DNA of 64,000 bases from NCBI RefSeq assembly GCF_058153355.1, contig NZ_CM177019.1; one strand, given 5' to 3'. Below, piece after piece: positions 48,001 through 51,000 of this stretch. Numbering within the stretch: position 1 is the first letter of the stretch; every line of letters begins with the position of its first letter. The position numbers were made by a program.

Positions 48001-51000
48001 GCGGTTGGATGCTATTTTTTCCCTGAAGCGGAAAACATTACTACAGTACCTTGAACCTTGGTTTTAACATTCTCGAAATGCTCTGAGAGTATATGTGTTA
48101 AGCCTTCTTCGGAATCTTTTGTGTTTGAAAAGATGCCTTTTTGATTGTAAATGCGCATCAGTTTTTGACCGAAGCTATTGTGCACAACTCCATCGCCAAG
48201 AATTGTGGCTCCGTATAGAGTTCCATCATCAGTTAAGGCCTGCGCCGCATTGCGTATTACACAGCTTTTTGTAGATATATTTCCTGGCAGGCAGTGAAGA
48301 AGGTAAAACATGGAAATGGAATCAAATTGACCATGTAACGCCGCGGGATAAGGTTCAAAAACATCATGGCTAATTTTATGTTTAATTTTTGATTCCCCAG
48401 CCCTTGTAGATGCCGCGTTCAGGCTAGCTTCGTTCAAATCCATTAAAGATATCAGACTACTCTCAGGTACGTGAGTAAGGTAAAACCCAGTTCCAACACC
48501 AATATCCAGATGGTTGTTACCTAAATGTTCCAGAAAGTGTGGAAGAAGGTGTTCCTTTGTAGGACATCCCCATGCAAGCCGATTTGATACTCCCAAAACC
48601 CACCAGTCATAAAGCTTTAGGGTAAGTGGTGTGTAAATTTTAGCCCCATCATCTGTGTTTTTTTTCATTAATTTCACCATATTATAGTTTTATTTGTGAA
48701 TTAAATCAATTATGGCGATGAATTACAAGGGGTTAAATGCTGCCGCAGCATAGCGATATTGAAATAGCCTGGTATGCTTCGATACAGCAGGAGCCGAATG
48801 GCTGGAAGACCGTCACCACACAGTTCTACATCCAGGAATTCAGTGAGCATATTGCGCCACTTCAGGATGCTGTAGATCTGGAGATCGCAACGGAGGAAGA
48901 AAACTCGTTGCTGGAAGCCTGGAAGAAGTATCGGGTGTTGCTGAACCGTGTTGATACATCAACTGCACCTGATATTGAGTGGCCGGAAGAACCAGACACA
49001 ATGTAAGCGAAAAAGAAAAACCGCAGACACGACGTATGCAGGACGTGCTGCGGTTGGCTGGTGAACTTTCGATAGTGCGAGTATTGAATGATTTCCAGCC
49101 GTTACCGATTTTATATAACTGCAGTGGAATTATTCAACACACAGGCAAAACGGAATAAGCTGAGAAAAAAGCGTGCTTTCCCAATCTGGGGCAAATCACG
49201 TCTGAATGACACCTGAAAACAGGTGGTGGACTCAAGAAGGCTTGGAATATTCTTCTTTAATGTTATGTAATTCATTGATTTTTCGTGTACGATTTTAAGA
49301 CATTTTTTCCAAGAAAAATTTTTAACTCTTTGATTTTTCGACTCTGTATCATCGGTCTCGAAAACCGGAGTAGGGGCAACTCTACCGGGGGTTCAAATCC
49401 CCCTCTCTCCGCCACTTTATCAATGACTTATCTCCTAACTTCCCGCCTTGCTTTTTCTTAACAGAACAATCGTAGAATATTCTTGAAGGTTTAGATCGTC
49501 ACTGTTTTCTGTTCGATACTGTGACATTCAGCACTTGATTAGCTATTGATCTGACATGAGGGTTTCGAGCGTAAATCTGCAGTTATTCAGTCGTTTTCTT
49601 TTCGGTCACCATTATTCTTTTAGACATTGATCCTACGAAGCTGCCGCAAAGTTGGTGGTGGGAACTGAAGTTGCGTAGAGAAGGGGGCAATAATTGAGCC
49701 AAAAAAGGAACGCGGCCGTCAGATTAAAGCCGCGGGACAAAGTCCATAATTTCCAAGAGTTGTTGAATTTCCCAGCTTTTTTGAAAGCCTTTGTATCATA
49801 CTAACAAGTAAAAAAGGTTTAAATACCAAAATTAACCTATATTTCTGGTTAGCTTTACCATGACAGATGACTTGCTCCTGGAGACATTGGCGCTACCAGT
49901 CTGTATTGGTGAGTTGTGTATTTATTGTTCGCCGTTTCCTCAGTTTTTTTCTACAGACATAATAAAAAAGACACGTCTCAAGCATGAGCGTGTCTGAGTT
50001 TGTCTTATTTATTTGTCTTGGTAAATTATTGTCGTTACTACCAGGCACTGTTCTGTTAAATAACTGAAGTCAGCGCAAAAAAATCAATGAGGCATCATCT
50101 CCTCGACCACTTCTTCGCTACTCAACTGATAGGGATAATACGTTGGCCAGTTTTCCATTTCATTCAATAAAGATTGCTGTGAATCATTACCCATAAAAAT
50201 GTGAAAATGAGATGATTTTCGTGGTGCAATTATATGATCGCTAAATTGTATATATTTAGGGGCTTTGCTTTCAGGATCTTTACATTCGTATAAGTAACGA
50301 ACGCCTTTCTTGCCTGATTTATAGGTGAGTATTTTGTAGCCATCGTAATCATATTTACAGGATGTAGTTTCGTTATTTCTATGGAATTCAATAATGCCGT
50401 CCTCAATACCAATCATTTCGATATCTGTCGCGTAGCCTTTCTGATAATAATCTTTAACTTCTGCGAATGTTTTGGTTTTATCTGCATTCGCTTTCTTTCG
50501 AAAGACGGGGTCAAGCTTGCCATTTTGCAGTAAGGGATAAACGGATTGCCAGACTCCATCCCAGTCACTGAGCGTTCGGTTTTGTACATTGGCATCATCA
50601 AAAACACCGTTAGCCGCTTTTTGTTCGACCTCTGTTAGGGGGTTACCGTGTGAGTGATGACCATGCGAAAAGGCAGGACCGCTAACAATAAATACACCTA
50701 AAGCAATAGCCATTTTATGAAGACGAATCGCCAAAACAGTTTCCTCCAGAGTTATTTTATATGACATGTAATGTTATATTGTAACACATAACAAAATGCA
50801 ACAACTCTTGGGAGACGAGTGCATAGTGTACCCAGGTGTACTCTCTATCTTATTGAAATAAAATAAATTACTTCGATGATTTGAGGTTGATGACAAACGA
50901 AACATAACCTGATGCGATCTGTGTGGGCCGGATAAGGCGCTCACGCCGCATCCGGCAGGGATAACGCGTACTTTGTCGGCAATATGAAGTTATAGAGATA

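What the first reader, a model, noticed from the sequence alone, without database searches (positions are those of the whole stretch)
49415..50083. About 670 bp without a sizeable ORF between attR and zinT, where I recall yodB in K-12
From memory, K-12 has the order zinT-yodB-serU. Here no ORF of 60 aa or more lies between the tRNA-Ser fragment and zinT, only a zinT terminator and AT-rich sequence. If the recollection is right, yodB has been deleted or degraded next to the integration site.
Basis: inference. Interest (0 to 1): 0.25.

Follow-up and report, generated by a model that had tools for sequence, protein, structure and literature searches.

The report
Natural yodB-less zinT–serU spacer
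The gene-free 668 bp between the prophage end and zinT is the ordinary yodB-less form of this spacer, found unchanged in about 42% of complete E. coli genomes including strains with no prophage at serU, so the phage removed nothing.

Summary
Window 49415-50083 has no ORF of 60 aa or more, and K-12 does have the order zinT-yodB-serU. The interpretation does not hold.

- **What differs from K-12.** zinT aligns up to its stop codon, and the 446 bp next to the serU fragment (49416-49861) aligns at about 94%. Between them, K-12's 995-bp yodB segment is replaced here by an unrelated 222 bp (49862-50083). That segment holds only the zinT terminator hairpin. No yodB remnant is present.
- **How common it is.** The 222-bp form occurs in 2299 of 5426 complete E. 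coli genomes. The yodB form occurs in 3114.
- **No link to the prophage.** UTI89 and Z0117EC0005 have the identical 668-bp layout beside an unoccupied serU. Strains with yodB keep it beside serU prophages.
- **Likely direction of change.** E. albertii also lacks yodB, and its zinT 3' flank is a collinear homologue of the 222 bp. The nearest non-E. coli YodB relatives are cargo genes inside lambdoid prophages. So the yodB-less state is probably ancestral and yodB a later gain in K-12-type lineages.

This is an ordinary, already known accessory-gene polymorphism of low interest.

Side notes: lambda-type phages carry a fossil copy of this attR junction that includes 277 bp of host DNA. The phage-supplied half of serU carries a compensatory base-pair change.

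The parts
2608..2697 (+). Intact serU, tRNA-Ser(CGA), at attL. Its 3' 62 nt (2636-2697) is the phage-supplied copy of the att core.
   Evidence: ARAGORN. 60 of 62 nt match 49353-49414; the two differences, at 2655 and 2666, form a compensatory pair.
49353..49414 (+). attR core: the displaced host 3' 62 nt of serU, ending in CCA.
   Evidence: Identical to the K-12 serU 3' end within the 94.7% alignment to L001 5022-5530.
49416..49861 (.). Conserved 446-bp non-coding spacer downstream of serU. It corresponds to K-12 2043021-2043466, the yodB-serU intergenic region.
   Evidence: About 94% identical to K-12. Matched in 5420 of 5426 complete E. coli genomes, with no feature annotated under it in any of the 30 hits listed. 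The serU-proximal 130-190 bp are also conserved in E. albertii and Escherichia sp. MOD1-EC7003.
49416..49692 (.). Sub-part of the spacer. These 277 bp are also carried, joined to the tRNA fragment and the phage P arm, in the b region of the lambda-type phages ev099, mEp332 and PhiR70_1.
   Evidence: A contiguous 535-bp match at 95.5-96.4% to window 49158-49692. ev099 has lambda-type Int and a lambda attP core beside int.
49862..50083 (.). The 222-bp yodB-less allele of the zinT 3' flank. It occupies the place of K-12's 995-bp segment (2042026-2043020) that contains yodB.
   Evidence: Not alignable to the K-12 segment apart from a 28-bp hairpin match. Present in 2299 of 5426 genomes. Collinear homologue of the E. 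albertii zinT 3' flank: 144 of 237 positions identical, z = 9.0 against shuffles.
49963..49995 (-). Intrinsic terminator of zinT: a hairpin (CAGACACGCUCA-UGCU-UGAGACGUGUCU) followed by UUUUUU.
   Evidence: Fold of -17.5 kcal/mol, z = -3.4. The stem is kept in E. albertii with a compensatory A-U to G-C change. The simple pattern scan missed it because of a one-base bulge.
50084..50734 (-). zinT, encoding a periplasmic metal-binding protein of 216 aa.
   Evidence: 94% DNA identity to K-12 zinT, running exactly up to the stop codon. Best protein matches are named ZinT and carry PF09223.

Best explanation
The interval is the intact, native yodB-less allele of the E. coli zinT-serU intergenic region. 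It is neither a deletion scar nor a decayed gene. It has two parts. The first is a 222-bp zinT 3' flank whose only recognisable element is the zinT intrinsic terminator. The second is a 446-bp non-coding spacer downstream of serU that nearly all E. coli share. The lambdoid prophage (2698-49352) integrated by site-specific recombination within the serU anticodon stem-loop region. This duplicated the last 62 nt of the tRNA and left the chromosome to the right of attR untouched. E. coli is dimorphic at this site: 42% of complete genomes, including B2 strains such as UTI89 and ST131, have the 222-bp form, and 57%, including K-12, HS, O157:H7 and O111:H8, have a 995-bp form with yodB. By inference, the yodB-less form is ancestral for Escherichia. 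The yodB cassette probably entered a K-12-type ancestor by horizontal transfer, most likely from a phage cargo gene (a 'moron'), and replaced the old zinT 3' flank. Shown here: the anatomy, the population frequencies, and the independence from the prophage. Inferred: the direction of change (gain rather than loss) and the phage origin of yodB.
For: - K-12 alignment: zinT matches up to its stop and the 446 bp plus tRNA fragment match at 94-95%, while 222 bp here face 995 bp in K-12 with no alignment apart from a 28-bp hairpin.
- No YodB-like coding potential in the interval.
- Allele counts: 2299 genomes with the 222-bp form and 3114 with the yodB form, out of 5426.
- Empty serU followed by the same 668 bp and then zinT in UTI89 and Z0117EC0005. 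The window-Z0117 alignment is gap-free over 3731 bp at 98.6%.
- yodB is kept beside serU prophages (PMC9729726).
- yodB presence or absence is already used as a clone marker in ST410 (PMC10786849).
- E. albertii has zinT, 567 bp and serU with no yodB. Its flank is homologous to the 222 bp (E = 4e-11 and 1e-10, z = 9.0), whereas K-12's flank is only weakly similar (z = 3.4).
- YodB relatives drop from 99% within E. coli to 77% or less elsewhere.
- Three of the four closest relatives examined lie between the lysis and terminase genes of lambdoid prophages, and the fourth lies near a lambda Bor homologue. DNA similarity to K-12 extends 88 bp upstream of yodB in two of these loci, as expected of a self-contained cassette.
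- None of 80 zinT loci from other species has yodB within 4 kb.
Against: - Only one informative outgroup, E. albertii, was available. The other Escherichia outgroup (MOD1-EC7003) has a separate deletion there, and E. fergusonii and E. marmotae did not appear in any search.
- The zinT hairpin stem survives at the same distance from the stop codon in the K-12 allele. K-12's flank is therefore a remote homologue, not wholly foreign DNA.
- YodB's identity to its Citrobacter and Salmonella relatives (62-77%) is about the same as ZinT's (66-71%). Sequence distance alone therefore does not rule out vertical descent with losses.
- Phylogroup assignments rest on general knowledge of a few named strains, not on a tree built here.
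Confidence: 0.88

Rival explanations
1. yodB was ancestral at this site and was lost by an old deletion or replacement in the ancestor of the lineages that now carry the 222-bp form, unrelated to the prophage. E. albertii would have lost it independently or earlier.
For: The zinT hairpin stem is conserved at the same offset in the K-12 allele. YodB's divergence from its Citrobacter and Salmonella homologues is similar to ZinT's. K-12's flank has weak residual similarity to both other flanks (z = 3.4-3.7).
Against: The 222 bp is a collinear orthologue of the E. albertii flank, while K-12's flank is not. No yodB remnant is present. yodB homologues elsewhere are non-syntenic and mostly prophage-borne. 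None of 80 zinT loci in other species has yodB nearby. Matches to the 222-bp allele span a wider identity range against the window (93-100%) than matches to the yodB allele do against K-12 (nearly all at or above 95%).
Confidence: 0.1
2. One reading: yodB was deleted or degraded as a by-product of prophage integration or excision at serU.
For: yodB is absent and a prophage end lies 446 bp from the difference.
Against: The same layout is found beside an empty serU. It is shared by 2299 genomes. The 446 bp between attR and the difference are intact and collinear. The att core duplication is precise. Strains with yodB and a serU prophage keep yodB.
Confidence: 0.01
3. The interval hides an unannotated functional element, such as a small protein gene or a small RNA processed from the zinT 3' UTR, which would explain why it is retained.
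For: The terminator hairpin is conserved with a compensatory change in E. albertii, and its stem persists even in the otherwise unalignable K-12 allele. Enterobacterial 3' UTRs ending in conserved terminators are a known source of small RNAs (general knowledge).
Against: Rfam at a permissive threshold hits only the tRNA fragment. No feature is annotated under the match in any of the RefSeq genomes listed. The 45-aa ORF loses its ATG in E. albertii, and the region where the 51-aa ORF starts is poorly conserved there. A literature search found no zinT-derived small RNA. A conserved terminator is enough to explain the hairpin.
Confidence: 0.05

Closest known systems
K-12 MG1655 zinT-yodB-serU interval (b1973-b1975, NC_000913.3 2041375-2043557)
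   Same: Same flanking genes and order: msrP, msrQ, zinT, then serU, mtfA, asnT. zinT and the 446 bp next to serU are about 94% identical. The stem of a hairpin about 107 nt after the zinT stop is shared.
   Different: K-12 has 995 bp with yodB (176 aa, cytochrome b561 family, PF01292) where the window has an unrelated 222 bp. The K-12 hairpin lacks the U tract.
UTI89 (NC_007946.1) and Z0117EC0005 (NZ_CP098223.1) serU-zinT interval
   Same: Identical 668-bp layout, 96.7% and 99.7% identical, with no annotated gene and no yodB.
   Different: serU is unoccupied in those strains. Here a 46.7-kb lambdoid prophage separates the intact serU from the interval.
Lambdoid prophages integrated at serU (Stx1d prophage of O121:H7 RM8082, PMC9729726; LT-IIb prophage record KU052038)
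   Same: Same attachment gene, similar size (about 47 kb), and a prophage end facing the zinT side of serU.
   Different: Those hosts carry the yodB allele, so the prophage is flanked by yodB. This host carries the yodB-less allele.
Phage cargo genes ('morons') at the lysis-terminase junction of lambdoid phages (bor-type position)
   Same: The closest non-E. coli YodB homologues (75-77%) occupy exactly this position, on the opposite strand, in prophages of Citrobacter portucalensis and Hafnia paralvei and in metagenomic contigs.
   Different: This bears on the origin of K-12's yodB, not on the window. The window's prophage carries no yodB homologue.

Membership tests
yodB gene or pseudogene (cytochrome b561 family, PF01292) | Coding or residual coding similarity to YodB | tested here: not met
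   tblastn of K-12 YodB against the whole window gave no hit in 49415-50083. The best hits elsewhere had E = 0.25 and 1.4.
yodB gene or pseudogene (cytochrome b561 family, PF01292) | DNA homology to the K-12 yodB segment (L001 4027-5021) | tested here: not met
   Only a 28-bp, 82% match at the zinT hairpin, which lies outside yodB itself.
Deletion scar caused by prophage integration or excision | Sequence missing relative to prophage-free genomes of the same allele type | tested here: not met
   The window aligns without gaps to Z0117EC0005 (98.6% over 3731 bp) and to UTI89 across the tRNA fragment, the interval and zinT. Both have an empty serU.
Prophage attR at a tRNA gene | Direct repeat of the tRNA 3' part at both prophage ends, with an intact tRNA at one end | tested here: met
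   2636-2697 against 49353-49414 match at 60 of 62 nt. The intact tRNA-Ser(CGA) is at 2608-2697.
Prophage attR at a tRNA gene | Tyrosine integrase next to the att site and phage genes between the repeats | tested here: met
   The 341-aa ORF at 2750-3775 (-) matches lambda-type Int at E = 7e-20. Region 2698-27000 matches lambdoid phages at 90-93%.
Rho-independent terminator (of zinT) | G+C-rich hairpin followed by a U tract, downstream of the stop codon on the gene's strand | tested here: met
   Fold of -17.5 kcal/mol with z = -3.4, followed by UUUUUU. The consensus scanner missed it because of a bulge.
Rho-independent terminator (of zinT) | Structure conserved through compensatory change in relatives | tested here: met
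   E. albertii has CAGGCAC...GUGCCUG against CAGACAC...GUGUCUG here, one A-U to G-C exchange. This rests on a single outgroup.
Rho-independent terminator (of zinT) | Transcripts actually end there | not testable with these tools
   This needs 3'-end mapping (Term-seq or Northern blot).
Known RNA families (Rfam 15) | Covariance-model match within the interval | tested here: not met
   The only matches are sub-threshold hits on the tRNA fragment at 49360-49411.

The most novel reading that the evidence does not exclude
The serU-zinT spacer may be a site where chromosome and lambdoid phages exchange DNA past the prophage boundary. Lambda-type phages (ev099, mEp332, PhiR70_1) carry a fossil of this very attR with 277 bp of host DNA. 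yodB-type cytochrome b561 genes travel as phage cargo genes. K-12-type strains could therefore have gained yodB when phage-borne DNA recombined into the chromosome through such shared flanks. That event would have replaced the ancestral zinT 3' flank, kept the zinT hairpin and lost its U tract, so that yodB may be read through from the zinc-regulated zinT promoter.
Probability: 0.12. Interest if true: 0.4.

Novelty: already known. Interest (0 to 1): 0.1.

Why it matters
It matters little beyond correct annotation. The missing gene is a normal lineage polymorphism, so nobody should record a phage-induced deletion or a yodB pseudogene here. It also shows that K-12 is not a neutral reference: at this site K-12 probably carries the derived, gene-gain state. 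The two side observations add modest evidence that recombination around tRNA attachment sites reaches past prophage borders. These are the fossil attR with host DNA inside lambda-type phages, and yodB relatives travelling as phage cargo.

Tried and rejected
- **Rfam scan.** A permissive scan of 49200-50900 gave only sub-threshold hits on the tRNA fragment.
- **Promoter and terminator scan.** It gave nothing above the shuffle expectation and missed the bulged zinT hairpin, which I found by reading the sequence and confirmed by folding.
- **Species-representative genome scan with ZinT.** It returned only two Escherichia outgroups. One of them (MOD1-EC7003) has its own deletion joining the zinT stop to the last ~160 bp before serU, so it says nothing about polarity.
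- **ZinT search of the protein database.** It gave no labelled E. fergusonii or E. marmotae entries to follow, so it added no outgroup.
- **G+C content.** It does not separate native from foreign DNA here: yodB is 42%, zinT 38% and the spacer 39%.
- **The 277-bp phage match.** I considered that it might mean the chromosomal spacer is itself a phage P' arm. I rejected this because ev099 has lambda Int and a lambda attP core beside int, so its serU-type junction is a captured fossil, not its working attachment site.
- **Literature search for a zinT 3'-UTR small RNA.** Nothing relevant was found.
- **'No ORF' as a signal.** Half of composition-matched random sequences show the same result.

Full report
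**Observation**

The window holds an intact tRNA-Ser(CGA) at 2608-2697 (+) and tRNA-Asn at 1541-1616 (-). At 49353-49414 lies a copy of the last 62 nt of serU, ending in CCA. zinT occupies 50084-50734 on the minus strand. Between them, at 49415-50083, the longest ORFs are 51 aa (-) and 45 aa (+).

On its own it carries no statistical weight. Of random sequences with the same length and first-order composition (39% G+C), 51% also lack an ORF of 60 aa or more.

**Comparison with K-12**

MG1655 has zinT (b1973), yodB (b1974, 176 aa) and serU (b1975), with 1442 bp between zinT and serU. Aligning the window to K-12 gives three results:

- Window 50800-50084 matches K-12 up to the last base of the zinT stop codon, at 94.0%.
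- Window 49861-49353 matches K-12 2043021-2043529 at 94.7%. This is the yodB-serU spacer plus the serU 3' part.
- Window 49862-50083 (222 bp) faces K-12 2042026-2043020 (995 bp, containing yodB). The only similarity is a 28-bp, 82% match.

tblastn with YodB finds nothing in the interval. This is a clean replacement of one segment by another next to zinT, 446 bp from the attachment site. It is not a decayed gene.

**Population frequency**

| Segment | Complete E. coli genomes with it (of 5426) |
|---|---|
| 446-bp serU-proximal spacer | 5420 |
| 222-bp segment | 2299 |
| K-12's 995-bp yodB segment | 3114 |

The two segments behave as two alternative alleles that together account for nearly every genome. 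No feature is annotated under the 222-bp or 668-bp matches in any of the RefSeq records listed.

**Independence from the prophage**

UTI89 and Z0117EC0005 have serU followed directly by the same 668 bp (96.7% and 99.7% identical) and then zinT, with no prophage at serU. The window aligns to Z0117EC0005 without any gap from the tRNA fragment through zinT, msrQ and msrP (3731 bp, 98.6%). Integration therefore removed nothing.

Conversely, yodB lies beside serU prophages in hosts that carry the yodB allele. Examples are the LT-IIb prophage record KU052038 and the 47-kb Stx1d prophage of O121:H7 RM8082, listed as serU-(prophage)-yodB in PMC9729726. yodB presence or absence has already been used as a marker between ST410 subclones (PMC10786849).

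**Direction of change**

*Outgroups.* E. albertii has zinT, 567 bp and serU, with no yodB. Its sequence after the zinT stop is collinear with the window's 222 bp. BLAST gives E = 4e-11 and 1e-10. A global alignment has 144 of 237 positions identical, z = 9.0 against shuffles. K-12's first 233 bp give only z = 3.4. A second outgroup, Escherichia sp. MOD1-EC7003, has its own deletion there and is uninformative.

*YodB relatives.* These fall from 99% identity within E. coli to 77% or less outside it. I looked up the genomic context of five:

| Homologue | Identity to YodB | Context |
|---|---|---|
| Citrobacter portucalensis | 76% | Lambdoid prophage, between lysis cassette and terminase, opposite strand |
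| Metagenomic cluster | 76% | Same position |
| Hafnia paralvei | 75% | Same position |
| Citrobacter sp. | 72% | Near a lambda Bor homologue |
| Salmonella | 65% | Beside the sap operon and a pagC-type gene |

DNA similarity to K-12 extends 88 bp upstream of yodB in two of these loci (L095, L096), as expected of a self-contained cassette. None of 80 zinT loci from other species has yodB within 4 kb.

I infer that the yodB-less form is ancestral and that K-12-type lineages gained yodB. Confidence in this polarity is about 0.7, because only one outgroup is informative.

**What the interval contains**

The only recognisable element in the 222 bp is a hairpin at 49963-49995 (-), CAGACACGCUCA-UGCU-UGAGACGUGUCU followed by UUUUUU. 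It folds at -17.5 kcal/mol with z = -3.4 and starts about 90 nt after the zinT stop codon. It is the zinT terminator.

E. albertii keeps the hairpin with one compensatory A-U to G-C exchange. The same stem also survives in the K-12 allele, but without a U tract. K-12's flank is therefore a remote homologue rather than wholly foreign. This is the main point in favour of the rival 'ancestral yodB, later lost' reading.

Rfam finds nothing beyond the tRNA fragment. The small ORFs are not conserved in E. albertii.

**Side findings**

1. The lambda-type phages ev099, mEp332 and PhiR70_1 carry a contiguous 535-bp copy (95.5-96.4%) of window 49158-49692. This is the serU-phage P arm, the tRNA fragment and 277 bp of chromosomal spacer, and it sits between tfa and an AraC-family gene. 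ev099's integrase is lambda-like, only 23% identical to the window's, with a lambda attP core beside it. The segment is therefore a fossil attR with captured host DNA.
2. The intact serU at attL differs from the host-type fragment at attR at two positions, 2655 (G versus A) and 2666 (C versus T). Together they change an A-U pair of the variable arm to G-C. The phage therefore supplies a slightly different but structurally equivalent 3' half. The crossover must lie within 2636-2654, the anticodon stem-loop.

**Verdict**

yodB is absent relative to K-12, but it was not deleted or degraded by events at the integration site. This is an ordinary, already documented accessory-gene polymorphism of low interest.

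Noticed in passing
window 49158-49692; L089 2243-2777 (mEp332); L091 1370-1904 (ev099): The lambda-type phages ev099, mEp332 and PhiR70_1 carry a 535-bp copy (95.5-96.4%) of this attR junction. It comprises the serU-phage P arm, the 62-nt tRNA fragment and 277 bp of chromosomal DNA. They carry it although ev099 has lambda Int and a lambda attP core beside int. It is a fossil attR with captured host DNA in the b region.
   Followed up: partly
window 2655 and 2666 (attL serU) versus 49372 and 49383 (attR fragment): The phage-supplied 3' half of serU differs from the host copy at two positions, which together turn an A-U pair in the variable arm into G-C. This is a compensatory change. It places the crossover within 2636-2654, the anticodon stem-loop.
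   Followed up: partly
L085 6001-6540, L095/L096 6001-6540, L094 969-1502: The closest non-E. coli homologues of YodB (75-77% identity) are cargo genes on the opposite strand between the lysis cassette and the terminase genes of lambdoid prophages. They occur in Citrobacter portucalensis, Hafnia paralvei and metagenomic contigs.
   Followed up: partly
L001 4118-4147 (K-12, downstream of zinT): The K-12 yodB allele keeps the zinT hairpin stem at the same distance from the stop codon but has no U tract after it. This raises the untested possibility of read-through from zinT into yodB.
   Followed up: no
L004 3001-3207 (E. coli FDAARGOS_1373): In this strain only the first 206 bp downstream of serU remain and they are joined directly to fliP. 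An integrase-bearing island sits on the other side. This implies a large deletion that removes zinT, msrPQ and further genes.
   Followed up: no
L005 4649-4830 (Escherichia sp. MOD1-EC7003): This is a third state of the locus. The zinT stop is joined 9 bp later to the last ~160 bp before serU, and an island with a P4-type integrase is inserted after only about 14 nt of the tRNA 3' end.
   Followed up: no
window 117-1481 (-): A P4-type integrase ORF lies directly beside tRNA-Asn at the left edge of the window. In UTI89 the same position holds the integrase of the yersiniabactin high-pathogenicity island, so an island at asnT may start here.
   Followed up: no
window 48012-48680 (-) and 48737-49006 (+): A 222-aa ORF of unidentified function (not searched against any library) lies on the opposite strand just before a short 89-aa tail-fibre-assembly ORF. 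Only the last 164 bp of that short ORF match the 194-aa tfa of ev099 and mEp332. This looks like a cargo insertion that truncated tfa at the prophage's right end.
   Followed up: no
window 49353-54102: The chromosomal flank (zinT, msrQ, msrP, hiuH side) is only about 95% identical to both K-12 and UTI89, but 98.6% identical to strain Z0117EC0005. The host therefore belongs to a sparsely sampled lineage: only 9 records match the 668-bp interval at 99% or more.
   Followed up: no
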